Of a DNA stretch of 64,000 nt, positions 21,999 through 60,695 are shown in pieces. The position numbers were made by a program, and so were the translations under genes. The notes under the pieces were generated by a model, which was not told the DNA's origin, searched no databases, and saw only the letters and a list, made by a program, of their open reading frames with translations. The DNA comes from Escherichia phage ECO4. The DNA lies in the sequence record NC_054911.1. The stretch is one strand, 5' to 3'. Numbering within the stretch: the stretch's first letter is position 1; each line of letters starts with the position of its first letter.

Positions 21999-23417
21999 TT
22001 ATGGATAAGTATAGATGATACCAGTTTCTAAAGCAGTTTTATGGATGATGTATCCATTACGTGATTCTTGAACATCAACTTCTGGATAATCTTTCATCAT
22101 CTTCTGAAGCGTATAACGATGCAAGTAGTACTTACTATCTGGATCTTCAGTTTTCCAATCTTTACCTTCTTCAGTCATTTTTTGGATTTCATCCATAACC
22201 CACCAACCGCACCAGATATAAGCTGAAGTACGATGTGGAAGAGGATGAACATAAGGCAATTCACCTTCTGGTTCCGGAGCAACTTTATCAGTTACCTGAA
22301 CTTGACCTGTTGTTTTAACTGTTTTGCTATCATAGTCAGTTGCTGTAACGACAGCAGTAACTTCAATAGTTTGACTTCCAACAGATGAGGTATCAACAGT
22401 ATATACGTTAGTTGACCCTTCTACAGGAGAAGAATCTTTCTTCCATGAGTAAGTAATTTGTGCTTCTTCTGGAGCATCCGTAACATTAGCAGTAAATGTA
22501 GCCGAAGCATCTTGCTGAACGTTAATAGAAGGAGGAGTCAATGTAACCTGTGGATTCATTGTCTTCTTATTAACTGTCAATGATACTTCATTAGAAGTAA
22601 CTTCCTTTTCATTGTAATTTTCTGCTGTTACTTGGGCTACGCATTTAATTCTTTTTACTCCACTTGTAGTTGGAGTATAGCTAAATGTAGAGCTAGTTTC
22701 TCCACCAACTTGTGAATCATCTACATACCACTGATACGTAGCAGATGCTCCATCAGGTTGAGAAGCTAAGGCAGCAGTAAATTGAACTGGGGTTCCAATT
22801 ACTCCAGCTGAAGGACTAGCAGGAGTTACTGCCAATGTAGTTGTCTGTGTCTTTTTATTAACAGTCAGTGATACTTCATTAGAAGTAACGGTTTTTTCAT
22901 CATAATTTGTCGCGGTTACTTGAGCTACACACTTGATTTTTTTAACTCCGCTTGCGGCAGGAGTGTAATTGAATGTAGCAGAAGTCGCTTCGTCTACAGG
23001 AGAACTGTCAACGTACCATTGATACGTAGCAGATGCACCTGATGGCTGCGAAGCTAAAGCAGCGGTAAATTTAACAGCTGTTCCAATTACTCCTGCTGGA
23101 GGACTATTGGGAGTTACGGCTAAGGTAGTCGTCTGAGTTTTGTTTTTGACTGTGATAGTTGTAGTAGCTTCTGCTGTTTCAGCTTCAGATTCTGGAACTG
23201 TATTTGTTGCAACAACTTTAATAGTCTTTTGACCAGCAGGACCTTTTAATACATAATCAAAAGTTGCTTCAGACCCATCTTGTGGAGCATTATCTACACT
23301 CCAAGCATAAGTAATAGTTCCACCTCCAGTTTCACCACTAGGTGCAGCAGTAAACTGCTTGGTTTCATCAATAACTCCTGACGGTGTTTTAGGAGTTATA
23401 TCAACTGTAAAAGCCAT
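21999..23417 (-). CDS. hoc: highly immunogenic outer capsid protein Hoc, 472 aa with four tandem Ig-like domains plus C-terminal capsid-binding domain
   Basis: N-terminus MAFTVDITPKTP and C-terminal YIWCGWWVMDEIQKMTEEGKDW capsid-binding region typical of Hoc; ~96-aa Ig-like repeats; about 96 aa longer than T4 Hoc (376 aa). Confidence 0.93.
   Translation of the reverse strand: MAFTVDITPKTPSGVIDETKQFTAAPSGETGGGTITYAWSVDNAPQDGSEATFDYVLKGPAGQKTIKVVATNTVPESEAETAEATTTITVKNKTQTTTLAVTPNSPPAGVIGTAVKFTAALASQPSGASATYQWYVDSSPVDEATSATFNYTPAASGVKKIKCVAQVTATNYDEKTVTSNEVSLTVNKKTQTTTLAVTPASPSAGVIGTPVQFTAALASQPDGASATYQWYVDDSQVGGETSSTFSYTPTTSGVKRIKCVAQVTAENYNEKEVTSNEVSLTVNKKTMNPQVTLTPPSINVQQDASATFTANVTDAPEEAQITYSWKKDSSPVEGSTNVYTVDTSSVGSQTIEVTAVVTATDYDSKTVKTTGQVQVTDKVAPEPEGELPYVHPLPHRTSAYIWCGWWVMDEIQKMTEEGKDWKTEDPDSKYYLHRYTLQKMMKDYPEVDVQESRNGYIIHKTALETGIIYTYP
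22566..23141 (-). repeat. tandem direct repeat, two diverged 288-bp units encoding Hoc Ig-like domains 2 and 3
   Basis: Protein residues 93-188 and 189-284 are the same length and highly similar (KTQTTTLAVTP...SNEVSLTVNK); DNA units 22854-23141 and 22566-22853 are clearly related but diverged (identity not computed). Confidence 0.75.
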
Positions 23418-33849: not shown

Positions 33850-34814
33850 TGTATTCTTTAGAGGAATTTAATAATCAAGCAATAAACGCAGACTTCCAAC
33901 GTAATAATATGTTCAGCTGTGTTTTTGCTACAACTCCATCAACTAAAAGCTCATCGTTAATAAGCTCAATTAGTAACTTTGCTTATAATAACTTGGGTCT
34001 AAATTCAGATTGGTTGGGATTAACTCAAGGTGATATTAATCAGGGAATTACCACGCTAATTACCGCTGGCACACAAAAACTGATAAGAAAATCAGGGGTT
34101 AGTAAATATCTTATTGGTGCCATGAGTCAACGTACAGTTCAAAGTTTATTAGGCTCATTTACAGTTGGTACATATTTAATTGACTTCTTTAACATGGCAT
34201 ATAACTCATCTGGATTGATGATATATTCTGTAAAAATGCCAGAGAATAGATTATCCTATGAAACTGACTGGAACTATAATTCTCCTAATATTCGTATAAC
34301 TGGAAGAGAATTAGACCCTTTGGTTATTTCATTTAGAATGGATTCAGAAGCTTGTAACTATCGTGCAATGCAAGACTGGGTTAACGCTGTTCAAGACCCA
34401 GTAACTGGATTGCGTGCTTTACCGCAAGATGTCGAGGCAGATATTCAGGTCAATCTTCATTCTCGCAATGGATTACCACATACTGCGGTGATGTTCACTG
34501 GCTGTATTCCAATATCTGTGAGTGCTCCTGAGTTATCATATGATGGAGATAACCAAATAACTACATTTGATGTTACTTTCGCGTATAGAGTCATGCAGGC
34601 TGGAGCAGTTGATAGACAAGCTGCCCTTGAATGGCTTGAATCTGCTACTATAAATGGTATTCAAAGCGTTCTCGGAAATAGTGGAGGTGTTACTGGACTA
34701 TCTAATTCGCTTTCACGACTTAGTAGATTAGGGGGAACTGCAGGAAGCATTTCAAATATTAATACTATGACAGGAATTGTCAACTCGCAAAGTAAAATAT
34801 TAGGAGCAATATAA
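33849..34814 (+). CDS. 54: baseplate tail tube initiator gp54
   Basis: 321-aa ORF; T4 gp54 size and position. Confidence 0.92.
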   Translation: MYSLEEFNNQAINADFQRNNMFSCVFATTPSTKSSSLISSISNFAYNNLGLNSDWLGLTQGDINQGITTLITAGTQKLIRKSGVSKYLIGAMSQRTVQSLLGSFTVGTYLIDFFNMAYNSSGLMIYSVKMPENRLSYETDWNYNSPNIRITGRELDPLVISFRMDSEACNYRAMQDWVNAVQDPVTGLRALPQDVEADIQVNLHSRNGLPHTAVMFTGCIPISVSAPELSYDGDNQITTFDVTFAYRVMQAGAVDRQAALEWLESATINGIQSVLGNSGGVTGLSNSLSRLSRLGGTAGSISNINTMTGIVNSQSKILGAI

Positions 34815-34818
34815 CAAT

Positions 34819-34848
34819 GGGGACCGAAAGGTCCCCATGTTTTTATTT
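34819..34848. terminator. bidirectional terminator between convergent gene 54 and the 96-aa ORF
   Basis: GGGGACC-GAAA-GGTCCCC followed by ATGTTTTTATTT on the + strand. Confidence 0.7.
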
Positions 34849-35133
34849 ACGGAATGAAATAAAAGCAGCAACTGAAGCAACAGAGGTTTCTTCAATATAA
34901 ACCTCAATTTTTATCGGAGCTTCTGACTCAAATTTACCTGTTACTACACCCTGAAAAATACTTTCAGTCTGTTCTGGCTTTGAAAAATTTTCAGAAGGAA
35001 AAATTCCGAACTTTTTATCTGTTCCAAAAATTTTGATAAATTCATCGTAAACTGCTTCATTGAAAGCGTTATCAGCGGGAATAACGCCTTCAACGACGAG
35101 TTCTTGACCTAAAAAGCGCAAAGAAGATTTCAT
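34843..35133 (-). CDS. hypothetical protein downstream of alt paralogues
   Basis: 96-aa ORF with GAGGA SD, driven by the duplicated early promoter cassette at 35141-35194. Confidence 0.7.
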   Translation of the reverse strand: MKSSLRFLGQELVVEGVIPADNAFNEAVYDEFIKIFGTDKKFGIFPSENFSKPEQTESIFQGVVTGKFESEAPIKIEVYIEETSVASVAAFISFRK

Positions 35134-35164
35134 TTTGTGTTCCTCATGTTATGTCAGTAAGACT

Positions 35165-35194
35165 ACTATAACACAACACGAGGGACTTGTAAAC
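35165..35194 (-). promoter_or_regulatory. T4 early-type promoter (GTTTAC -35, TATAGT -10), copy A of the 54-bp cassette
   Basis: Coding-strand GTTTAC, 18 nt, TATAGT, then leader and GAGGA SD to ATG 35133. Confidence 0.6.
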
Positions 35195-37251
35195 TACATT
35201 TTGAACTTTTTAGACATTCCGTTGATGTTAACCAAAGAAGCTAAGATTTGAGAAACTTCGTTTTCCTCTTCTTTTGATTCTTCTACAAGGAATTGATTAA
35301 ATCCAGCCATTGGACGAACTTCACCAGTTTCCATTAGATGGTCGCCATCATATACTGATTCTTCTAATTGTTCAGAAGGAGGAACGATTGTACCTTCGAT
35401 TAGATACTTGTTATAAGCAGTTTCTTTCATAAAGTAAGTACTTACTTTATTAATCTTCAGTAAAATTCCACGTGGTAGAATAACTTCAGCTTCTGATGGA
35501 AATCCTGACAAATGACCTGGAACGATAACTTTAACTCGTTCAGCTCCTTTAATTACCATACCCACGCTAGTTTCAGCATCTTCATTAGCATATGTAGAAT
35601 GACTACCCATATGCATCAAATCTTCTGCATCAACGGAACCTTCTCCTTCACCAGAAAATACTGCTCCGGAATCATCTAAGGCCATATAATTTTTACCATA
35701 CTCACCAAAGATATTTGGTTTAAGTGATGTAGATACGAAGTTCTTGAAATAGAACATTTTATTTTCAATGTTATGACGCAAAGTTTTAAAAGTAACTTCT
35801 TGTCCACGGTAAAGTGTAGTTCCTGGAGGAAGAACTGAACCTTTAGCAAACGCAGAATCCATAGTCTCGATGTGCTTAATAGCGCGCTCCATGTATTCTT
35901 CACGTGTAGAATCAGGTTTACCTAAAAGGAATGAGTTCATTTCAACATACGAATCTGCACAATAATCTTCAATTACATCAGATTCAGCCTGAGTCAATCC
36001 TTTTGGAGTTACTTCAGTGCTTGCATATTCATACGCCTGAGCAGCGGATTCATCAATTAATTTATAAATGCCATTCATGACAAATTGAATAATAGCTGTC
36101 TTTTCATCTGGCGTAGCTTTAGAACCTTTAACTAAATCATTGACAATTTTCTTAATAACATCAAAGCTATTAGAAATATTAATGTCAGCAAGATCGCTTA
36201 AAATTTTATCAGTTTTATAATCAAAAAATTCTTTATTCTTTAAATATTCTTGAGAACTTTGATATGTTATATCGCTCTGCAACTTGATAGATGGATCACG
36301 TAAACGTGCATGGGCTAATGCAATATGATTTCGGAAGCTTTCTAGTTCATAATCACTAGATTTAAAACGAGAAGCACTCCTCATACCACCGATAGCTCCT
36401 TTGCCGAAGTTTGAACCAATCTGAATAACGCCAGAGTTCATTGGTCCTTCTGCTTTATATACCGGAACTTTAGATTCAAACTCTTGATATTTCTTAGCAG
36501 CAAAGCTATCACCCTGAAGTGAAGCATCAACAGTAGAATATTGAGCTTGTGCTGCTAATCGACGACTAATTTTAGTTTTCTGAATAACAGCTTGATCCGT
36601 ACGCTTATCATTTTCTAAAGCAATAGAAGCAGCAACTGCGACAGCTTTAGGAACAGCATTACCTGTTTTAACGTCTACATAAACATCACCGACTTTCGAT
36701 TCAACTTTTGTGAATAACTCAGTTGAAATAGGAGGTACACCTGGAATGTCTTCTAAATTGGCATTTTTACGGTAAACCATAATATATGCATATTTCTTAT
36801 CATAGTCCCAGATTTCCTTTAAAAGAACATATCGACCTGCTCCTTTAGTACGTACTAAACGGTCAGCAATAACTTGCATTTGACGAGCAGCGCCATTTGT
36901 TTTACTTTTTAGTACGCGGAATAGGCATGCATCAATTTTATACTGTTTCATTGTTTGAAGAGCAGTATCAAAAACCGCATTAATGACACCAATTGGATTT
37001 CCACCCAAATTTTTAAGCTTAACTAACGATAATTTCTCATTAACACCTATCATTACGATATGCATCATTTTGTCGCCTGGCTTAACGTTTTTATTCGTAT
37101 CACCGCCAGAGGTGTATGTACAAAATCGAAATCCAGGAAGAACGCTTTCTTCACCGGCTTGAATAGCAAAAATTTGAGGTATTTTATGCTTAGGATTTAA
37201 GTTAACAACCGGCGCCGAAGCGCCGTCAAATAATTCTGTAATAAGTTCCAT
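35194..37251 (-). CDS. Alt-family mono-ADP-ribosyltransferase paralogue (685 aa)
   Basis: N-terminus MELITELFDGASAPVVNLNP shared with the upstream paralogue; C-terminal ART signature (Arg in TLYRGQ, STS in FVSTSL, catalytic EAE in EAEVILPRG). Confidence 0.85.
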   Translation of the reverse strand: MELITELFDGASAPVVNLNPKHKIPQIFAIQAGEESVLPGFRFCTYTSGGDTNKNVKPGDKMMHIVMIGVNEKLSLVKLKNLGGNPIGVINAVFDTALQTMKQYKIDACLFRVLKSKTNGAARQMQVIADRLVRTKGAGRYVLLKEIWDYDKKYAYIMVYRKNANLEDIPGVPPISTELFTKVESKVGDVYVDVKTGNAVPKAVAVAASIALENDKRTDQAVIQKTKISRRLAAQAQYSTVDASLQGDSFAAKKYQEFESKVPVYKAEGPMNSGVIQIGSNFGKGAIGGMRSASRFKSSDYELESFRNHIALAHARLRDPSIKLQSDITYQSSQEYLKNKEFFDYKTDKILSDLADINISNSFDVIKKIVNDLVKGSKATPDEKTAIIQFVMNGIYKLIDESAAQAYEYASTEVTPKGLTQAESDVIEDYCADSYVEMNSFLLGKPDSTREEYMERAIKHIETMDSAFAKGSVLPPGTTLYRGQEVTFKTLRHNIENKMFYFKNFVSTSLKPNIFGEYGKNYMALDDSGAVFSGEGEGSVDAEDLMHMGSHSTYANEDAETSVGMVIKGAERVKVIVPGHLSGFPSEAEVILPRGILLKINKVSTYFMKETAYNKYLIEGTIVPPSEQLEESVYDGDHLMETGEVRPMAGFNQFLVEESKEEENEVSQILASLVNINGMSKKFKM

Positions 37252-37254
37252 GAT

Positions 37255-39351
37255 TTATCCTTGAACGAACTTGTAAGGCATGTTTGTAATATCTATGCAA
37301 GACGCAATAATTCCAAGAGATGATTCTACTTTCTGTTTAACATTTGATGAAACAAATGATGCAAAGTCAACTCTATCTTCTATTTCAATATCACCTGTCA
37401 TTGCAACTACTTCACCGGTTTCCATTAAATGGTCTCCGTCATAGATTACCGATTCGGTGAGCTCTTCCGTGGTCATAACTTCAGCTTGAATGAGTTTTGT
37501 ATTATTAGATGTTGTTCCGTCATTATTAGAAGCATCAGTTATTTTATTAACTTTGACCATCAATCCACGCGGTAGAATAACTTCAGCTTCTGTTGCTATT
37601 CCGAGACTTCCTGGATATACAACATTAACTTTATGAGCTCCATCAATTGCCCATCCTATTTGAACTTTAACGTATTCAGGATTTTCTTTATACGCTCTTA
37701 TTTCGTTTGGATTAATAGTTATTCCTTCTTCATTTTTATCAACTGTTAATTCATTGCGAGCTTCTGGTTCTAAAAGACCAATACCAGCATGTGTGATTCC
37801 AAAACGTCCAAAAATGATAGGAGTTAAAGAAGTAGATACAAAATTTCTGAAGTAGAACACTTTATTTTTAACTAACGCTTCATATATAGGAGCAGTCATA
37901 CTTTGAGCACGATAAACTGTAATGCCTTCTGGTATACGGTCACCATTTTCAAAAGCTGAATCTAAGTTATTTATAGCAGATTCAATTTCTTTTTCACTCA
38001 TTACATCATATCGTTCTGGATTGTAACGACCTAAAAGAAGATTATTGATGTCAGTATATCCTGAACCGCAATATTCTCTAATGCCACGCTTTTGTGATGG
38101 AGTATATTTAGAACCATCGCGGGCAATAGTAATATCAATCATTGGACCAGCACCAATTCCAGAAAAACTGTAAATCATTCGTTTGAGGAATTTAGTTTTT
38201 GCTGCGTTCCAGGAATTTTTAGTTATTTCTTCCCAGACTTCATCTGGTTGTCCTTTACGATTTTTATTATGATTAGCAAGCCATTTATCTTTATAATCTT
38301 CAAAGAATTGATTTACAGCTGCTGCGTATTTCTCTAAACATTTTATTGAAGTAGTTGGTTCATTTTTAATTGCATTAAAAATTACTTCTTTAATTTTTTC
38401 TGAAACTTCACCGACTTGACTCATTGGAAAGAATTTATAATCATAGTGAAGTTCATCTGCCGTTCCTTCAGCAATAATTTTTGCTGCCTTTGTTTTAGAA
38501 GCTAATGAATTAATTCCAATTTTCATTTCTTCTGCTTCGGGAATTAAAGGTGCAGTAGCTGGTTTATTAAAATTAGCTGCTGTAGATTCATACTTCTGGA
38601 ATAATTCACTTTCAAATCTAGAAGATTCCAATGACTGACTTTGTGCAATTGCTCTACGGGAAATTTTAACTTTAACGATTACGGCTTGGTCAGAACGTTT
38701 ATCATTTTCTTGTGCAATAGATGCAGCAATTGCCTCATTTTTGGTTACTTGAGCTCCAGTATCTTTATTGATATAAACATCACCGACCTTCGATTCAACT
38801 TTAGTAAAAAGCTCGGTGCTAATTTCTGGAACTCCTGGAATGTCTTCTAGTGATACATTTTTACGATGTATAAGAATATATGCATACTTTTTATCGTAAT
38901 CCCAGAGTTCCTTAAGAAGGACGTATCTGCCACCTGAACGACTGCGGATGAGTCTATCAGCAATAAGTTGAATTTGTCGAGCTTGACCGGCGGTTTTAGA
39001 CTTAAGAATACGAAGCATGCAGGCATCAATTTTATATTGACGCATTGTTTGCATTGCAACAGTAAAAACTGAATTGATATAATTAATCGGGCTTGGACCA
39101 AGACCTTTTAATTTAGCAATTGAACCTTTAGCAGTTAATGTAAAAGGAACAATGTGCATCATTTTATCGCCCATCTTTAAATCACGATTAGTATCACCTC
39201 CAGATGTATAGGTACATAAACGAAAGCCTGGTTGTTCAATTGCATCATCAACATGAACTGAAAAAATTTGTGGTATTTTCTTCTTTGGATTTAAGTTTGT
39301 AATCGGAAGAGTAGTATCTTCGTCAAATAATTCTGTAATGAGTTCCATCAT
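37255..39351 (-). CDS. alt: Alt ADP-ribosyltransferase (698 aa), packaged internal head protein
   Basis: N-terminus MMELITELFDEDTTLPITNLNP; R-S-E ART motifs (TVYRAQ, FVSTSL, EAEVILPRG); late TATAAATA promoter upstream; position next to gene 30. Confidence 0.88.
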   Translation of the reverse strand: MMELITELFDEDTTLPITNLNPKKKIPQIFSVHVDDAIEQPGFRLCTYTSGGDTNRDLKMGDKMMHIVPFTLTAKGSIAKLKGLGPSPINYINSVFTVAMQTMRQYKIDACMLRILKSKTAGQARQIQLIADRLIRSRSGGRYVLLKELWDYDKKYAYILIHRKNVSLEDIPGVPEISTELFTKVESKVGDVYINKDTGAQVTKNEAIAASIAQENDKRSDQAVIVKVKISRRAIAQSQSLESSRFESELFQKYESTAANFNKPATAPLIPEAEEMKIGINSLASKTKAAKIIAEGTADELHYDYKFFPMSQVGEVSEKIKEVIFNAIKNEPTTSIKCLEKYAAAVNQFFEDYKDKWLANHNKNRKGQPDEVWEEITKNSWNAAKTKFLKRMIYSFSGIGAGPMIDITIARDGSKYTPSQKRGIREYCGSGYTDINNLLLGRYNPERYDVMSEKEIESAINNLDSAFENGDRIPEGITVYRAQSMTAPIYEALVKNKVFYFRNFVSTSLTPIIFGRFGITHAGIGLLEPEARNELTVDKNEEGITINPNEIRAYKENPEYVKVQIGWAIDGAHKVNVVYPGSLGIATEAEVILPRGLMVKVNKITDASNNDGTTSNNTKLIQAEVMTTEELTESVIYDGDHLMETGEVVAMTGDIEIEDRVDFASFVSSNVKQKVESSLGIIASCIDITNMPYKFVQG

Positions 39352-39371: not shown

Positions 39372-39379
39372 TATTTATA
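39372..39379 (-). promoter_or_regulatory. T4 late promoter TATAAATA for alt
   Basis: Exact TATAAATA on the coding strand 20 nt before the alt ATG, just after a UUCG hairpin. Confidence 0.65.
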
Positions 39380-39403: not shown

Positions 39404-39589
39404 ATAATCTATTGGTAATAGAGTACGATATATTTCAAACTTTGGACCTTTTTCATAAGCATCAAAAGTTTCTGTGAATTTATTATAAGCATATGCATCT
39501 ATAAATTCAATCATGATTTGCGATACAGAAGTAGAAACATCTCCACCTTCTTTTTGAGCCACGACAATTGTTTCTAAGTAAGCTTTCAT
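39401..39589 (-). CDS. hypothetical small protein coupled to the DNA ligase gene
   Basis: 62-aa ORF, start overlaps gp30 stop; followed by a UUCG-type hairpin. Confidence 0.6.
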   Translation of the reverse strand: MKAYLETIVVAQKEGGDVSTSVSQIMIEFIDAYAYNKFTETFDAYEKGPKFEIYRTLLPIDY

Positions 39590-41049
39590 AAACCAGTTAC
39601 CTCATGAAAATCGCCAAATACATCTTCGAACGTATTAGCTTTAGTTTTATCTTCACGTAAACGAATCGCAATTGGAAGAAATAATTTAACGTAATCGGTG
39701 CGGCCATCAGATTTTAACCAACCGTTGCATTCACACTCTAGAATTTTTCCAATATAATAATTTTGGTTTTCCATAATGCGAGTACGGTCAAGTTCATGCG
39801 ATTTTACACCAGCTTTATCTTTTAAGCCTGAACCAGCATTTACTTTAATTTTTCCACACTCTGACTCAAGAATAAATCCACCCGCTTTAGTAGGGTCTTT
39901 ACGGTGAGGATAAATTCCTACAATTTTTAAATCAACATCAATTACTTCTTTAAATTTATAAAGATTTTTTGAACGAGCATTTTCCCATAATCCATCGATA
40001 TTTTTGAGAATAATACCTTCAAGACCTTGGTCAATATACTTTTTATAAATTACCTTAGCTTCATCTAGGTTATTTACTACCTGGTTTTCAATTAAAATTA
40101 CTTTATCATAACCTGATGTCATTTGTTCTAGTTTAGAAAAACGTACATCATATTTCAAACGAAATGCAGGAAGACCGTATATTTCTACCAACGGGACATA
40201 ATCCCAGACCTGAAACTTCATGCATTGTGCTTCTTTTTCAGAAATGGTTCCCTTTAAAGATTTATTAGCGATTCCATTAGAAGTAGTACGTGATTCAGCT
40301 ACTTCGGCGAATTCTTTAGCTTTACTAATTTCAGGATAAGCATCAAAAAGAAAATCTAGGCCTTCTGGTTCCTTTTCAACTTGCTCATGGTATACCAATT
40401 CGCCATCAATTAACACACCTTCTGGATGAATCTGGCGAGCTTCTGCAGTCATTTTGATTAACTCTTCCTTGAGAAGATCTAATCCTAGATATTCATTACC
40501 AGCTCGTGATAAAAGACGAACATCATCTAATTCATCACCTCTGACTTCAGCAAAGCACCGAGCTCCATCAGCTTTTAATTGGGCAAAGGCTGGAAACTTG
40601 ATATTCTTACTAATGCCTTTTTCATCATAAGAACTTGCCAGCATTTGAGGTTGTTCAGGAATTAAACCTGGCCAAACTTTGTTTGCAATAGATACTGAAG
40701 CACCGCATTCAAGGTCTCGCATCATCACCCGACGCAAAACTTCAACATCATCTTTTTTACCGTCAGCAATATATCCAGTTAATTCCTCAATTGCCGCATT
40801 TCCGGTCAATTTCCGAGTAGCTAACGTGAATTCAATGAAGTCAAGCATATCGGTAAGAGTCAACATTCCAAAACTCTGGGTAGCAATACCAGGTTTAGGC
40901 CATTTCTTGATATAATACTGTAACCCACGAGAATAAGTCAGACGATATACTCGTTTAAGCAATTCATTATCTTTATTCTTTTCAAGAATTGCTTGCTTCT
41001 GCTTAGTTGAACCAATAGATGCTATTTCGTTCAGAATTTTAAGAATCAT
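39586..41049 (-). CDS. 30: ATP-dependent DNA ligase gp30
   Basis: 487-aa ORF, MILKILNEIASIGSTKQKQAILEKNKDNELLKRVYRLTY (T4 DNA ligase is 487 aa). Confidence 0.96.
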   Translation of the reverse strand: MILKILNEIASIGSTKQKQAILEKNKDNELLKRVYRLTYSRGLQYYIKKWPKPGIATQSFGMLTLTDMLDFIEFTLATRKLTGNAAIEELTGYIADGKKDDVEVLRRVMMRDLECGASVSIANKVWPGLIPEQPQMLASSYDEKGISKNIKFPAFAQLKADGARCFAEVRGDELDDVRLLSRAGNEYLGLDLLKEELIKMTAEARQIHPEGVLIDGELVYHEQVEKEPEGLDFLFDAYPEISKAKEFAEVAESRTTSNGIANKSLKGTISEKEAQCMKFQVWDYVPLVEIYGLPAFRLKYDVRFSKLEQMTSGYDKVILIENQVVNNLDEAKVIYKKYIDQGLEGIILKNIDGLWENARSKNLYKFKEVIDVDLKIVGIYPHRKDPTKAGGFILESECGKIKVNAGSGLKDKAGVKSHELDRTRIMENQNYYIGKILECECNGWLKSDGRTDYVKLFLPIAIRLREDKTKANTFEDVFGDFHEVTGL

Positions 41050-45066: not shown

Positions 45067-45402
45067 TCACTTATAAAGACACGGAATAGCTTTATAGTGA
45101 CAAGTAACGAATTTTTGTTTAATTTCTTTTGGCTGCTTAAGACCCAGAGCTACAAAAGGATGCGGAACATTTCGAATTTGACCAACTGGAAGAGAAGTCA
45201 AATCACCAACTTCGCAGAAACCTTCAGGAACATCAGGACCGACAGAGTGAACTACACACAGTTCAGGAACTTCACCTTGAACACGTTTACCGATAATAAG
45301 TCCTGATTCTGTAACTTCTTCATCACCGGCTTGTGCGGGTTCAGAAACTAAAATAACATATTCACCGACAGCACGAATTGGTAGCTGTTGTACTTCAGAC
45401 AT
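45067..45402 (-). CDS. 31: co-chaperonin gp31 (GroES analogue for capsid folding)
   Basis: 111-aa [42 protein letters not shown] (T4 gp31 is 111 aa). Confidence 0.95.
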
Positions 45403-49613: not shown

Positions 49614-49963
49614 TTAGAAAGGTCCTGGATGTCTTCTGCGAACTTGTTGAAGGAGTTGTTGATTTGTTTTTCAACCAATCCTGGCTTACGAGCCACCACA
49701 TCCGCCTTCTTTGCATCTTTGCGCAGTTTTTCATTTTCACGCTCAATAGCAGCAATCGCCTCACGATTTTTATTATTCATCGCATCAATATAATTATACT
49801 GAATTCGCAAATTATTTAATGCTAAGGCGTTTTCATTGGCCGTTTTTGTAATTTCTACAACAGACGTTTCTAATCTTTCTACCTTATTTTTTAAAATAAT
49901 AGATGTTCCGCCAAATGCTATTACAAGTAATAGCAATCCAGCTGTAAAATTACTTACATGCAT
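49610..49963 (-). CDS. pseT.3: i-spanin, inner-membrane anchored coiled-coil protein
   Basis: 117-aa ORF with N-terminal TM helix (FTAGLLLLVIAFGGTSIIL) then charged helical region; paired with the downstream lipoprotein. Confidence 0.75.
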   Translation of the reverse strand: MHVSNFTAGLLLLVIAFGGTSIILKNKVERLETSVVEITKTANENALALNNLRIQYNYIDAMNNKNREAIAAIERENEKLRKDAKKADVVARKPGLVEKQINNSFNKFAEDIQDLSK

Positions 49964-50460
49964 AAAGTTTTAATAACCTCTATAATATCGTCTTGAGAAA
50001 GACCGTTAATTAAAATATGATGTTCAGCCGGAGATTTAGAAATTTTAAAGCACGCCGCAACATCTTCTGCCATATCCGATGCGCTACGATTTGGATTACT
50101 AATTCCAAGACGATGCTTTCCTGTCAAAGGATTAACGATGATATAGCATTTGCAGCTATTGATATGAACATTAGGTTGAGTCTGATTAATAAACACTTCA
50201 CAATCATACTTAGCGAGTTGATTTTCTAAAAAGACTTTCATCTCCTCAACCGCATCAGGAAGCATATCACGGGCTTGCTCAAGACGACGATTTCGATATT
50301 CTTTAATGGTCGTTTTCCGCTTGACTTGCTTAGCTAAATCTTTCTTAAGATCGGTGATATATCCAACTCGACGATTTCCTTTGAATACAGAAATCCCATC
50401 TGTAGTATCACCGTATGCTTCAACGACCATTTCAGTAGTAATAAGCTGCAAATCCATCAT
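49954..50460 (-). CDS. alc: Alc, host transcription terminator / unfoldase protein
   Basis: 168-aa ORF, MMDLQLITTEMVVEAYGD; position between spanins and rnlA; early promoter cassette upstream. Confidence 0.85.
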   Translation of the reverse strand: MMDLQLITTEMVVEAYGDTTDGISVFKGNRRVGYITDLKKDLAKQVKRKTTIKEYRNRRLEQARDMLPDAVEEMKVFLENQLAKYDCEVFINQTQPNVHINSCKCYIIVNPLTGKHRLGISNPNRSASDMAEDVAACFKISKSPAEHHILINGLSQDDIIEVIKTLCM

Positions 50461-50488
50461 AAAGTCCTCATGTTATGTCAGTAAGACT

Positions 50489-50518
50489 ACTATAACACAA
50501 CACGAGGGACTTGTAAAC
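50489..50518 (-). promoter_or_regulatory. T4 early-type promoter, copy B of the 54-bp cassette, upstream of alc
   Basis: Identical to 35165-35194; followed by identical leader and SD to the alc ATG. Confidence 0.6.
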
Positions 50519-50521
50519 AGC

Positions 50522-52109
<1,588 letters not shown>

Positions 52110-60665: not shown

Positions 60666-60695
60666 ATAGTATCACACTACTACCCCGTTGTAAAC
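60666..60695 (-). promoter_or_regulatory. T4 early-type promoter upstream of the micropeptide / small-ORF operon
   Basis: GTTTAC, 18 nt, TACTAT on the coding strand. Confidence 0.45.

What the first reader, a model, noticed from the sequence alone, without database searches (positions are those of the whole stretch)
35141..35194. Perfect 54-bp duplicated early promoter/leader cassette at two loci 15.3 kb apart
TCCTCATGTTATGTCAGTAAGACTACTATAACACAACACGAGGGACTTGTAAAC occurs identically at 35141-35194 (upstream of the 96-aa ORF below the alt paralogues) and 50465-50518 (upstream of alc). On the coding strand it reads GTTTAC, 18 nt, TATAGT, leader, GAGGA SD: a complete T4 early promoter plus 5' UTR. 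Identity is far above the flanking sequence, implying recent copying of a regulatory module, as described for promoter-early stem-loop (PeSL) cassettes in T4-type phages. It is also a potential site for homologous deletion or inversion between the loci.
Basis: partly seen in the sequence, partly recalled or inferred. Interest (0 to 1): 0.5.

Follow-up and report, generated by a model that had tools for sequence, protein, structure and literature searches.

The report
Duplicated early promoter inside RBS-masking hairpin
Two identical 54-base stretches in this T4-like phage are copies of one gene-start module, a strong early promoter built into an RNA hairpin that hides the ribosome-binding site on longer transcripts; it is native to the alc gene across many T4 relatives and was copied long ago in front of a second gene, alt.-3.

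Summary
The 54-mer occurs exactly twice (35141-35194 and 50465-50518), and the flanks are unrelated.

The window is a Tequatrovirus (T4 genus). The copies lie between the alt paralogue and alt.-3, and between rnlA and alc. On the minus strand each reads TTTACA-17-TGnTATAGT, then a leader and GAGGA.

The copying is not recent. About 498 Tequatrovirus records carry two copies each. T4 has 53/54 and T2 49/54.

Its 5' arm is the promoter spacer plus the -10; its 3' arm is the leader plus the Shine-Dalgarno sequence (SD). Transcripts started at this promoter (about 35158 and 50482) lack the 5' arm. Read-through transcripts would mask the SD.

At alc this layout recurs, with different arm sequences, in 11 of 15 lineages. 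At alt.-3, five other genera have an ordinary promoter without masking. The alc module was therefore most likely copied onto alt.-3 in the Tequatrovirus ancestor.

It fails the classic PeSL layout, which needs a stem-loop upstream of the promoter. Function is inferred, not shown. A viable deletion between the copies is unlikely, because genes 30 and 31 lie between them.

The parts
35141..35194 (-). Copy A of the 54-nt cassette, between the alt paralogue stop and alt.-3. Cassette position p corresponds to window coordinate 35194-(p-1).
   Evidence: Exact repeat. Folds at -22 kcal/mol, z = -5.4, 0/200 shuffles as good.
35188..35193 (-). Copy A -35 hexamer TTTACA (GTTTAC in T4 usage). The G at 35194 is also the last base of the alt-paralogue stop codon TAG.
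   Evidence: Promoter scan; sequence.
35165..35173 (-). Copy A extended -10: TG at 35173-35172, one base, then TATAGT at 35170-35165.
   Evidence: Promoter scan: spacer 17, TG present, 10/12 matches.
35164..35183 (-). Copy A 5' arm of the hairpin (cassette positions 12-31: anti-SD CCTC, the rest of the spacer, and the -10).
   Evidence: MFE and centroid structure.
35142..35159 (-). Copy A 3' arm (cassette positions 36-53: leader plus SD GAGG at 35145-35142). The predicted start site A37 is at 35158, so own-promoter RNA holds only this arm.
   Evidence: Fold. The leader alone is unstructured, z about 0. The TSS is inferred from -10 geometry and was not measured.
34843..35133 (-). alt.-3 ORF (96 aa), driven by copy A.
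   Evidence: ORF list; T4 annotation; tblastn finds it in 833 phage records.
50465..50518 (-). Copy B of the cassette, between the rnlA stop (50522-50524) and alc. Position p corresponds to 50518-(p-1).
   Evidence: Exact repeat.
50489..50517 (-). Copy B promoter: -35 TTTACA at 50517-50512, TG at 50497-50496, -10 TATAGT at 50494-50489.
   Evidence: Promoter scan.
50462..50512 (-). Copy B hairpin, 22 bp. The 5' arm is 50512-50488, the loop 50487-50484 and the 3' arm 50483-50462, including SD GAGG at 50469-50466. The helix extends 3 nt beyond the repeat: AAGTC pairs with GACTT only in the alc context. The predicted TSS is 50482.
   Evidence: Fold at -24.4 kcal/mol, z = -5.9 to -6.4.
49954..50460 (-). 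alc ORF (168 aa), driven by copy B.
   Evidence: ORF list; annotation of relatives.
35194..37251 (-). alt paralogue (685 aa). Transcription through it reads into copy A.
   Evidence: ORF list. A late-promoter motif TATAAATA lies at 39372-39379 (minus strand), just upstream of alt.
50522..51682 (-). rnlA (gene 63). Transcription through it reads into copy B.
   Evidence: ORF list; annotation.
34817..34838 (.). Bidirectional terminator hairpin that ends the alt.-3 unit (and gene 54 from the other side).
   Evidence: Terminator scan: 9 bp, 6 GC, T-runs on both strands.

Best explanation
Each copy is a compact expression module: a strong sigma-70 T4 early promoter nested inside an RNA hairpin that sequesters the downstream gene's Shine-Dalgarno (SD) sequence. 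The 5' arm of the hairpin is the promoter's own spacer, beginning with the anti-SD CCTC just after the -35, plus the -10. The loop is the discriminator. The 3' arm is the 5' UTR including GAGG.

RNA polymerase starting at this promoter (predicted +1 at cassette position 37, window 35158 and 50482) makes an RNA that lacks the 5' arm. Its SD is free, and alt.-3 or alc is translated immediately after infection. Transcripts that enter from upstream (alt and the alt paralogue, or rnlA) carry both arms, fold at -22 to -27 kcal/mol, and hide the SD. The downstream gene is then expressed essentially only from its own early promoter. This is the same logic as T4 e, soc, 49 and I-TevI, but with an early promoter in place of a late one.

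Evolution. The architecture is native to alc across Tevenvirinae. In the ancestor of Tequatrovirus, the alc version replaced the interior of the older alt.-3 promoter by patch conversion between the shared ends GTTTACAA and ACATGAGGA. Both copies have been kept since then, so the perfect identity here is the common state of the genus and not a recent event.

Shown: the repeat, the promoter match, the predicted hairpin and its significance, strand specificity, conservation with compensatory change at alc, and absence at alt.-3 outside Tequatrovirus. Inferred: the start site, that read-through RNA exists and is translationally silent, the direction of copying, and the mechanism of copying.
For: Promoter:
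- TTTACA-17-TATAGT with TG at both sites.
- Both sites are annotated as promoters in NC_054924.
- T4 alt.-3 and alc are early RNA and early protein. alt, alt.-1 and alt.-2 are middle RNA, and rnlA is late protein (PMC9697503 supplements).

Hairpin:
- The 54-mer folds at -22 kcal/mol, z = -5.4, 0/200 shuffles as good. In context the values are -23 to -27.3 kcal/mol, z = -4.5 to -4.9.
- All four SD bases pair with the spacer.
- The leader alone has z about 0.
- The sense strand folds at -22 kcal/mol against -12.8 for the antisense strand, owing to G.U pairs. This points to selection on the RNA.

Conservation:
- At alc, 11 of 15 lineage representatives have a promoter-spanning hairpin (z = -3.3 to -6.8) with 3-4 of 4 SD bases paired to the spacer. 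These include Tequatro-, Karam-, Moon-, Gelderland-, Jiaoda-, Dhaka-, Kanagawa- and Winklervirus.
- The arm sequences differ between lineages, for example TCTCCTCAT/ATGAGGAGA, TCTCCGTTT/AAACGGAGA and TCCTCATCAG/CTGATGAGGA.
- On a 12-bp helix alignment, 94.4% of cells pair against 64.8% when shuffled; 11/12 pairs show double changes; covariation is 0.825 against 0.26, with 0/500 shuffles as high.

Tequatrovirus variants:
- alc copies change only at pair-preserving positions (C13T, C15T, G16A) or in the loop or bulge (T27C, G32A, T33A, C34T).

Direction of copying:
- Five non-Tequatrovirus genera have a different alt.-3 promoter with 0/4 SD bases masked and z = +0.6 to -1.5.
- Cassette bases 7-11 (AAGTC) find their partner GACTT only in the alc flank.

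Age: about 498 records with two copies each.

Precedent: e, soc, 49 and I-TevI (PMC3014915).
Against: - No 5'-end, structure-probing or translation data for these sites were available here. The start site, and the claim that read-through RNA is untranslated, are inferences.
- Mosigvirus, one Kanagawavirus (KLB31) and a PM2-like phage have an alc promoter whose hairpin leaves the SD free, or have no hairpin at all. SD masking is therefore not obligatory for alc.
- Several other T4 early promoters have hairpins centred on the -10 that do not reach the SD. This hints at a more general role for such hairpins.
- The upstream stop codon abuts the -35, so a terminating ribosome could open the anti-SD and allow coupled translation.
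- The helix alignment for the covariation count was built from each sequence's own fold, so the percentage paired is inflated by construction. RNAalifold on a plain MAFFT alignment found nothing, because the helix register shifts between genera.
- Overall sequence identity does not tell the donor locus: 0.72 to alc outgroups and 0.74 to alt.-3 outgroups.
Confidence: 0.55

Rival explanations
1. Translational-coupling device. The hairpin masks the SD in polycistronic RNA, but ribosomes finishing the upstream gene (the alt paralogue or rnlA) stop 0-3 nt before the -35. They cover and melt the anti-SD, so alc or alt.-3 is translated from long transcripts in proportion to translation of the upstream gene, rather than being silenced.
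For: The upstream stop codon abuts the cassette at both loci: TAG overlaps G1 in copy A, and TAA lies 3 nt before copy B. The same holds in every genus examined. The anti-SD sits 8-15 nt downstream of the stop, which is within a ribosome footprint (general knowledge).
Against: In T4, rnlA and alt proteins are classed late, but Alc and Alt.-3 are classed early. Tight coupling would not predict this. An embedded promoter placed exactly so that its RNA lacks the 5' arm is not needed for coupling.
Confidence: 0.15
2. Plain duplicated promoter/leader cassette of the PeSL kind. The copy is simply a strong early promoter plus RBS that moved between loci. The hairpin is incidental, or serves recombination or shuffling, and has no role in translation.
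For: T4-type early promoter regions share a long consensus from the -35 to the ATG. PeSL papers show that such cassettes recombine (PMC2839356 and PMC4122927). Copy A borders a variable region: a full-length alt paralogue here, against the alt.-1 and alt.-2 remnants in T4.
Against: The defining upstream stem-loop is missing. The hairpin has z about -5 to -6, is strand-specific, and is conserved with compensatory changes at alc across many genera. Chance does not explain this. There are only two copies per genome, both fixed in position across the genus, so the cassette is not actively mobile.
Confidence: 0.12
3. The hairpin acts on the upstream message. It would be a terminator, a 3'-end stabiliser or an RNase III-type processing site that ends or cuts rnlA and alt transcripts at the gene boundary, insulating the early gene.
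For: The stem is long (18-22 bp), stable, and sits directly after the upstream stop codon. PeSL stem-loops are described as terminators. Other early promoters also carry hairpins centred on the -10 that do not touch the SD.
Against: No U-tract follows the stem at either copy or in other genera, and the terminator scan finds nothing at copy B or at the copy A cassette. In most lineages the 3' arm ends precisely on the SD, which a terminator or stabiliser does not require.
Confidence: 0.12
4. The perfect identity reflects ongoing gene conversion between the two copies within Tequatrovirus genomes (concerted evolution), rather than simple retention after one old transfer.
For: Three substitutions (C15T, G16A, G32A) are seen at both loci in different phages. 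One phage (L010) combines the T2-type spacer variant with the alc-type -10 at alt.-3, a mosaic within 54 nt. T4 recombination is very active and can use short homology (PMC2839356).
Against: Most variants are locus-specific: G29A is seen only at alt.-3, and T27C and T33A only at alc. Within-genome differences range from 0 to 5. Shared variants are all pair-preserving or loop changes, as expected if both loci are under the same constraint. Recombination between phages can also make mosaics. The sample holds only about 15 genomes with both copies.
Confidence: 0.25
5. DNA-level element: a dyad-symmetric operator for a dimeric regulator, or a cruciform, centred on the -10 and +1.
For: An inverted repeat spans the core promoter.
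Against: Three of the 18 pairs are G.U. The antisense strand folds far worse (-12.8 against -22 kcal/mol). The arm sequences differ completely between genera while pairing is kept. This argues for RNA pairing and against a conserved protein-binding sequence.
Confidence: 0.03

Closest known systems
T4 RBS-sequestering hairpins with an internal promoter (genes e, soc, 49, I-TevI)
   Same: The SD lies in a helix whose 5' strand is encoded upstream of, or overlapping, a promoter. Transcripts from that promoter lack the 5' strand and are translated, while longer transcripts are masked (PMC3014915 section 29).
   Different: In those cases the internal promoter is late (TATAAATA), so the gene is silent early and expressed late. 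Here it is an early sigma-70 promoter whose spacer is the anti-SD, which would give the opposite timing: expressed early and silent on middle or late read-through. alc and alt.-3 are not in that review's list. Function here is predicted only.
PeSL (promoter-early stem-loop) cassettes of T4-like phages (Arbiol 2010; Comeau 2014)
   Same: A compact, repeated unit of early promoter + SD + start codon. The consensus TTTACW-N17-TAYWAT is given for PST/T4. The units are thought to move or recombine between loci.
   Different: A PeSL stem-loop lies just upstream of the -35 and acts as a terminator. Here no such stem-loop exists at copy A, and copy B has only a weak 5-bp one. The strong stem-loop overlaps the promoter and includes the SD. 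There are only two copies, fixed in place across about 498 genomes, 15.3 kb apart and around essential genes. They do not flank a shuffled ORFan.
Canonical T4 early promoters (Pe)
   Same: -35 GTTTAC, 17-nt spacer, TGn, and a -10 with 5/6 matches (TATAGT), directly upstream of an early gene (review PMC2988021).
   Different: The pair is 54/54 identical, whereas other early promoters in the window share only consensus positions. The spacer carries an anti-SD.
Other T4 early promoters with promoter-spanning hairpins (motB.2, dmd, mrh.2, cd.2, 30.7, 30.8)
   Same: The spacer pairs with the initial transcribed region and the -10 sits in or near the loop. motB.2 (T4 8218) masks all 4 SD bases with z = -6.2.
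   Different: The sequences are different. Several do not reach the SD. None is a near-identical copy of the alc cassette.

Membership tests
T4 early (sigma-70) promoter | -35 GTTTAC/TTTACA, a spacer of about 17 nt, TGn, and a -10 close to TATAAT | tested here: met
   TTTACA-17-TATAGT with TG, 10/12 matches, at both copies.
T4 early (sigma-70) promoter | A/T-rich UP element upstream of the -35 | tested here: inconclusive
   The upstream sequence is coding DNA. It is A-rich at copy A (CTAAAAAGTTCAAAATGTA) and mixed at copy B. No UP-element scoring was done.
T4 early (sigma-70) promoter | Downstream gene expressed immediately after infection | tested here: met
   T4 alt.-3 and alc are early RNA and early protein, and the upstream genes belong to later classes (PMC9697503 supplements). 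This is indirect and comes from T4, not from this phage.
T4 early (sigma-70) promoter | Mapped primary 5' end about 7 nt after the -10 | not testable with these tools
   No TSS data set was found. The T4 genome review is not held.
PeSL cassette | Sigma-70-like early promoter followed by SD and start codon | tested here: met
PeSL cassette | Stem-loop (terminator) located just upstream of the promoter | tested here: not met
   The 80 nt upstream of copy A fold with z = +0.22. Copy B has only a 5-bp UAUCC/GGAUA hairpin, z = -1.4, with no U-tract. No terminator-like site was found.
PeSL cassette | Sits in hyperplastic regions next to ORFs that differ between close relatives | tested here: inconclusive
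   Copy A borders the alt-paralogue indel (full-length here and in T2; alt.-1 and alt.-2 remnants in T4). Copy B sits in the conserved rnlA-alc junction.
PeSL cassette | Mediates excision or mini-circle formation between neighbouring copies | not testable with these tools
   This needs inverse PCR. The copies are 15.3 kb apart with genes 30 and 31 between them.
RBS-masking hairpin with internal promoter (e/soc/49/I-TevI class) | SD and/or AUG paired in a stable helix in the long transcript | tested here: met
   Predicted: 4/4 SD bases paired, -22 to -27 kcal/mol, z = -4.5 to -6.4. Conserved with covariation at alc. Not probed experimentally.
RBS-masking hairpin with internal promoter (e/soc/49/I-TevI class) | Promoter placed so that its transcripts lack the 5' strand of the helix | tested here: met
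   The -10 occupies cassette positions 25-30 inside the 5' arm. The predicted +1, at position 37, is the second base of the 3' arm. The leader alone is unstructured.
RBS-masking hairpin with internal promoter (e/soc/49/I-TevI class) | The internal promoter is a late promoter (TATAAATA) | tested here: not met
   It is a sigma-70 early promoter. There is no TATAAATA in either cassette. It therefore works like the class but is a variant of it.
RBS-masking hairpin with internal promoter (e/soc/49/I-TevI class) | Measured loss of translation from the long transcript | not testable with these tools
   Requires reporters, toeprinting or ribosome profiling.
Intrinsic terminator | GC-rich stem followed by a U-tract | tested here: not met
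   No hit at either cassette. The only terminator nearby is at 34817-34838.
Any Rfam family | Match to a curated covariance model | tested here: not met
   Only chance-level hits, far below gathering scores, in 34600-35600, and none on the cassette.

The most novel reading that the evidence does not exclude
T-even phages use a portable 'immediate-early-only' switch: an early promoter whose spacer is the anti-Shine-Dalgarno strand of a hairpin. A gene embedded in a longer middle or late transcription unit is then translated only from its own early transcript. This would be the mirror image of the classic late-promoter-in-hairpin control of e, soc, 49 and I-TevI. The switch is ancestral at alc, recurs at other early genes (motB.2 and, partly, mrh.2 and 30.8), and was transplanted whole onto alt.-3 by patch conversion between two promoters. 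That transplant would show that regulatory logic, and not just promoter strength, can be copied between loci.
Probability: 0.45. Interest if true: 0.6.

Novelty: new variant of a known kind. Interest (0 to 1): 0.45.

Why it matters
The duplicated promoter by itself is ordinary T4 biology. The anatomy adds three points.

1. It explains why the spacer and the leader, normally free to drift, are conserved as one 54-nt unit.
2. It suggests a simple cis-acting way for T4-type phages to keep genes such as alc strictly immediate-early, even though they sit downstream of genes transcribed at middle and late times. This bears on the old distinction between immediate-early and delayed-early expression.
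3. It gives a dated example of a whole regulatory module, promoter plus translational gate, being copied from one gene to another.

It also cautions against filing every repeated early promoter as a PeSL. For phage engineering, the cassette is a 54-nt part that would couple strong early transcription to insulation from upstream read-through.

Tried and rejected
- PeSL layout. I folded the 80 nt upstream of each -35 and found no significant stem-loop, so membership was rejected.
- Structured 5' UTR in the own-promoter transcript. The leader alone folds no better than shuffles.
- RNAalifold on a plain MAFFT alignment of alc upstream regions from 8 genera gave no consensus structure. The helix register shifts by 3-4 nt between Tequatrovirus and the others. 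I used per-sequence folds and a helix-anchored alignment instead, with the stated caveat.
- Overall sequence identity as a way to pick the donor locus was uninformative: 0.72 against 0.74.
- An exact-pattern scan of IMG/VR found only 7 stretches, and the metagenome scan found 10. That is too few paired copies for a gene-conversion test, which stays inconclusive.
- Literature. The T4 genome review (PMC150520) is not held. Searches for T4 TSS maps, or for an early-promoter/RBS-masking description, found nothing specific. This library is incomplete, so prior description in older T4 literature cannot be excluded.
- Rfam gave no family.
- The BLAST hit to a Mosigvirus promoter next to ndd shares the -10, leader and SD consensus but not the anti-SD spacer. 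I judged it consensus-level similarity and not a third copy.
- Viable deletion or inversion between the copies. Inversion is impossible for direct repeats. A deletion would remove genes 30 and 31.

Full report
**1. Observation**

The 54-mer TCCTCATGTTATGTCAGTAAGACTACTATAACACAACACGAGGGACTTGTAAAC is present at 35141-35194 and 50465-50518 with no mismatch. No further copy exists in the window at up to 3 mismatches, and none is expected by chance. The identity stops abruptly: the neighbouring 54 nt match at 16/54 and 22/54. The two copies are direct repeats 15,324 nt apart.

**2. Context**

The window is a Tequatrovirus. It is about 99.5% identical to phages wV7, KMB40 and JY01 over both loci. All relevant genes are on the minus strand.

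- Copy A lies between a full-length alt paralogue (685 aa, 35194-37251) and alt.-3 (96 aa, 34843-35133). The paralogue's TAG stop shares its G with GTTTAC.
- Copy B begins 3 nt after the rnlA stop and precedes alc (49954-50460).
- Read on the coding strand the cassette is GTTTACAAGTCCCTCGTGTTGTGTTATAGTAGTCTTACTGACATAACATGAGGA.

**3. It is an early promoter**

- The scan finds TTTACA-17-TATAGT preceded by TG, with 10 of 12 matches, at both sites. This fits the T4 early type described in PMC2988021 and the PST/T4 consensus TTTACW-N17-TAYWAT (PMC4122927).
- RefSeq phage Lutter annotates a 'promoter' on the minus strand at both places.
- In time-resolved T4 omics, alt.-3 and alc are early RNA and early protein. 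alt is middle RNA and late protein, alt.-1 and alt.-2 are middle RNA, and rnlA is early RNA and late protein (PMC9697503 supplementary files 4 and 6). A change of class at each cassette is what a new early start predicts.
- No mapped 5' end was available. The start site (cassette position 37, window 35158 and 50482) is inferred from geometry.

**4. Not recent, and exactly two copies per genome**

- BLAST of either locus finds about 498 Tequatrovirus records and 995 places, which is two per record.
- T4 itself has 53/54. T2 has 49/54, and other members differ at 0-5 positions.
- The alt.-3 copy with the alc-type -10 and leader (TATAGTAGTC) is exact in 254 records. The TATAATAATC variant is exact in 50. 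Perfect identity is therefore the commonest state in the genus.

**5.

- As RNA of the coding strand, the 54-mer folds at -22 kcal/mol, with z = -5.4 and 0 of 200 shuffles as stable.
- In context, copy A gives -23 and copy B -27.3 kcal/mol.
- Cassette positions 12-25 and 28-31 (spacer and -10) pair with 36-53 (leader and SD). The loop is 32-35. GAGG (50-53) pairs with CCTC (12-15).
- In the alc context the helix is extended by AAGTC/GACTT, using 3 nt beyond the repeat.
- The leader alone is unstructured.
- The antisense strand folds much worse (-12.8 kcal/mol), because three pairs are G.U. This points to selection on the sense RNA and not on the duplex DNA.
- RNA started at the embedded promoter therefore has a free SD. 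RNA arriving from upstream has a masked one.

**6. Comparative test**

I collected alc upstream regions from GenBank and IMG/VR.

- At alc, 11 of 15 lineage representatives carry GTTTAC followed at once by an anti-SD that pairs with the SD across the promoter. These are Tequatro-, Karam-, Moon-, Gelderland- (two), Jiaoda-, Dhaka-, Kanagawa- (CIP9 type) and Winklervirus, plus two unnamed IMG/VR lineages.
- Their z-scores are -3.3 to -6.8, and 3-4 of 4 SD bases pair with the spacer.
- The arms differ in sequence but stay complementary.
- On a 12-bp helix-anchored alignment, 94.4% of cells pair against 64.8% in shuffles. Eleven of 12 pairs show changes on both sides. The covariation score is 0.825 against 0.26, with 0/500 shuffles reaching it, and slid registers drop to 41-57%.
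- Caveat: that alignment was built from each sequence's own helix. A plain MAFFT alignment gave RNAalifold nothing, because the register shifts.
- Exceptions:
  - Mosigvirus: a hairpin around the -10 with the SD free, or no hairpin.
  - Kanagawavirus KLB31: a hairpin that leaves the SD free.
  - A PM2-like phage: the SD pairs with the leader downstream of the -10, not with the spacer.
  - Gaprivervirus: an extra ORF lies between rnlA and alc.
  - Acinetobacter phage Ac42: no comparable hairpin.
- Within Tequatrovirus, the alc copies vary only at pair-preserving positions (C13T, C15T, G16A) or in the bulge or loop (T27C, G32A, T33A, C34T).
- The alt.-3 copies also carry pair-breaking changes: C12A, G18A, and G29A, which makes a perfect TATAAT.

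**7. Origin of the second copy**

- At alt.-3, Mosig-, Dhaka-, Gelderland- and Karamvirus and a Klebsiella phage all have an early promoter in the same place.
- It is of another type (for example GTTTACAACACCACAAGGATGTGGTA...), with no anti-SD, 0/4 SD bases masked and z = +0.6 to -1.5.
- Only Tequatrovirus has the alc-type cassette there.
- The outgroup alt.-3 promoters already share the ends GTTTACAA and ACATGAGGA with the cassette. A patch conversion of the roughly 37 nt in between is enough to explain the copy.
- Two observations make alc the likely donor. The architecture is ancestral at alc, and cassette bases 7-11 have a pairing partner only in the alc flank.
- Overall identity cannot decide this.
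- Whether conversion still goes on is unresolved. Three variants occur at both loci and one mosaic exists, but most variants are locus-specific.

**8. Mechanism proposed, and rivals**

The closest precedent is the control of T4 e, soc, 49 and I-TevI. There the RBS is sequestered in early read-through RNA and freed in transcripts from a late promoter inside the structure (PMC3014915). That review does not list alc or alt.-3. Here the internal promoter is early, which would restrict translation to the gene's own immediate-early transcript.

Read-through is plausible. A late-promoter motif lies just upstream of alt (39372-39379). No terminator lies between alt and alt.-3 until 34817-34838, and no terminator follows rnlA.

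Rivals:
- Translational coupling. The upstream stop codon abuts the -35 in all lineages, so a terminating ribosome would cover the anti-SD.
- A role in ending, stabilising or processing the upstream message. There is no U-tract, and the 3' arm ends on the SD.
- An incidental palindrome in a mobile promoter cassette.
- A DNA operator. This is contradicted by the G.U pairs and by arm sequences that are not conserved.

**9. Wider pattern**

- Of the five other early promoters in the window, three have significant hairpins centred on the -10 (z = -3.4 to -4.9), and one (30.8) partly masks its SD.
- In T4 1-50 kb, motB.2 has a strong SD-masking promoter hairpin (z = -6.2). dmd has a strong hairpin that leaves the SD free (z = -4.6). 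mrh.2 has a partial one.
- The alc/alt.-3 cassette is therefore the clearest member of a recurrent design, not an isolated oddity.

**10. Rearrangement claim**

Direct repeats cannot invert the interval. A deletion would remove alt, gene 30 (ligase, 487 aa, 39586-41049), gene 31 (111 aa, 45067-45402), cd and pseT. From established T4 genetics, genes 30 and 31 are essential. A 15-kb tandem duplication would exceed the headful capacity. Viable derivatives are therefore not expected.

**11. Verdict**

- The promoter, 5' UTR and copying parts of the interpretation are supported.
- 'Recent', 'PeSL' and 'inversion' are not supported.
- The most likely description is an old, genus-wide duplicate of an early promoter nested in an RBS-masking hairpin. 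This is a new variant of a known T4 control principle, and the function remains to be tested.

Noticed in passing
window 34817-34838: A perfect 9-bp, GC-rich hairpin with T-runs on both strands lies between the convergent genes 54 (ends 34814) and alt.-3 (ends 34843). It is a bidirectional terminator. PhAPEC2 annotates the equivalent site as a terminator.
   Followed up: partly
window 35194-39351: There are two full-length alt genes in tandem (685 and 698 aa). Repeat families with 2094-2097 nt spacing reflect this duplication. T4 keeps only the remnants alt.-1 and alt.-2, and its deletion ends about 20 nt before the stop codon that abuts copy A.
   Followed up: partly
window minus strand, -35 at 60694, 47214 (cd.2), 43757 (30.7), 44149 (30.8); L079 (T4) 8218 (motB.2), 20612 (dmd), 15288 (mrh.2): Many other early promoters have a hairpin that pairs the spacer with the first transcribed bases, placing the -10 in or near the loop (z = -2.6 to -6.2). 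motB.2 masks its whole SD, and 30.8 and mrh.2 mask theirs partly. This may be a general, undescribed feature of T-even early promoters.
   Followed up: partly
L004, L023-L026 (alt.-3 upstream in Dhaka-, Mosig-, Gelderland- and Karamvirus and a Klebsiella phage): The ancestral alt.-3 promoters share a short hairpin wholly inside the spacer (for example CCAC-AAGGA-GTGG and CACA-TGGA-TGTG), with compensatory differences between genera. Its function is unknown.
   Followed up: no
L002 1500-1562 (Mosigvirus O157 typing phage 3, next to ndd): A small ORF has a promoter whose -10, leader, SD and start junction (TATAGTAGTCCTACTGAAACATGAGGAACACAAAATG) closely resemble copy A, including the alt.-3-type junction. 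Its spacer is different, with its own GGTAGGA/TCCTAC hairpin.
   Followed up: partly
L019, L041, L042, L064 (Gaprivervirus rnlA-alc interval): An extra 77-aa ORF sits between rnlA and alc. It is preceded by a GC-rich terminator hairpin and by an SD-masking hairpin (GGTTCCATCA/TGATGAGGACC), with no sigma-70 promoter inside it.
   Followed up: no
window 22560-23135: A 288-nt unit is repeated in tandem at 76% identity (family D1). It probably encodes repeated protein domains, but this was not examined.
   Followed up: no
window 39372-39379 and 37968-37975 (minus strand): T4 late-promoter motifs TATAAATA occur just upstream of the alt start codon and inside alt. This is consistent with late transcription running through the alt genes toward copy A.
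   Followed up: partly
T4 alt.-3 (literature): alt.-3 is dispensable. C-terminal extension mutants of it let T4 escape the CmdTAC defence system by blocking CmdA degradation. The wild-type function is unknown (PMC11618068).
   Followed up: no
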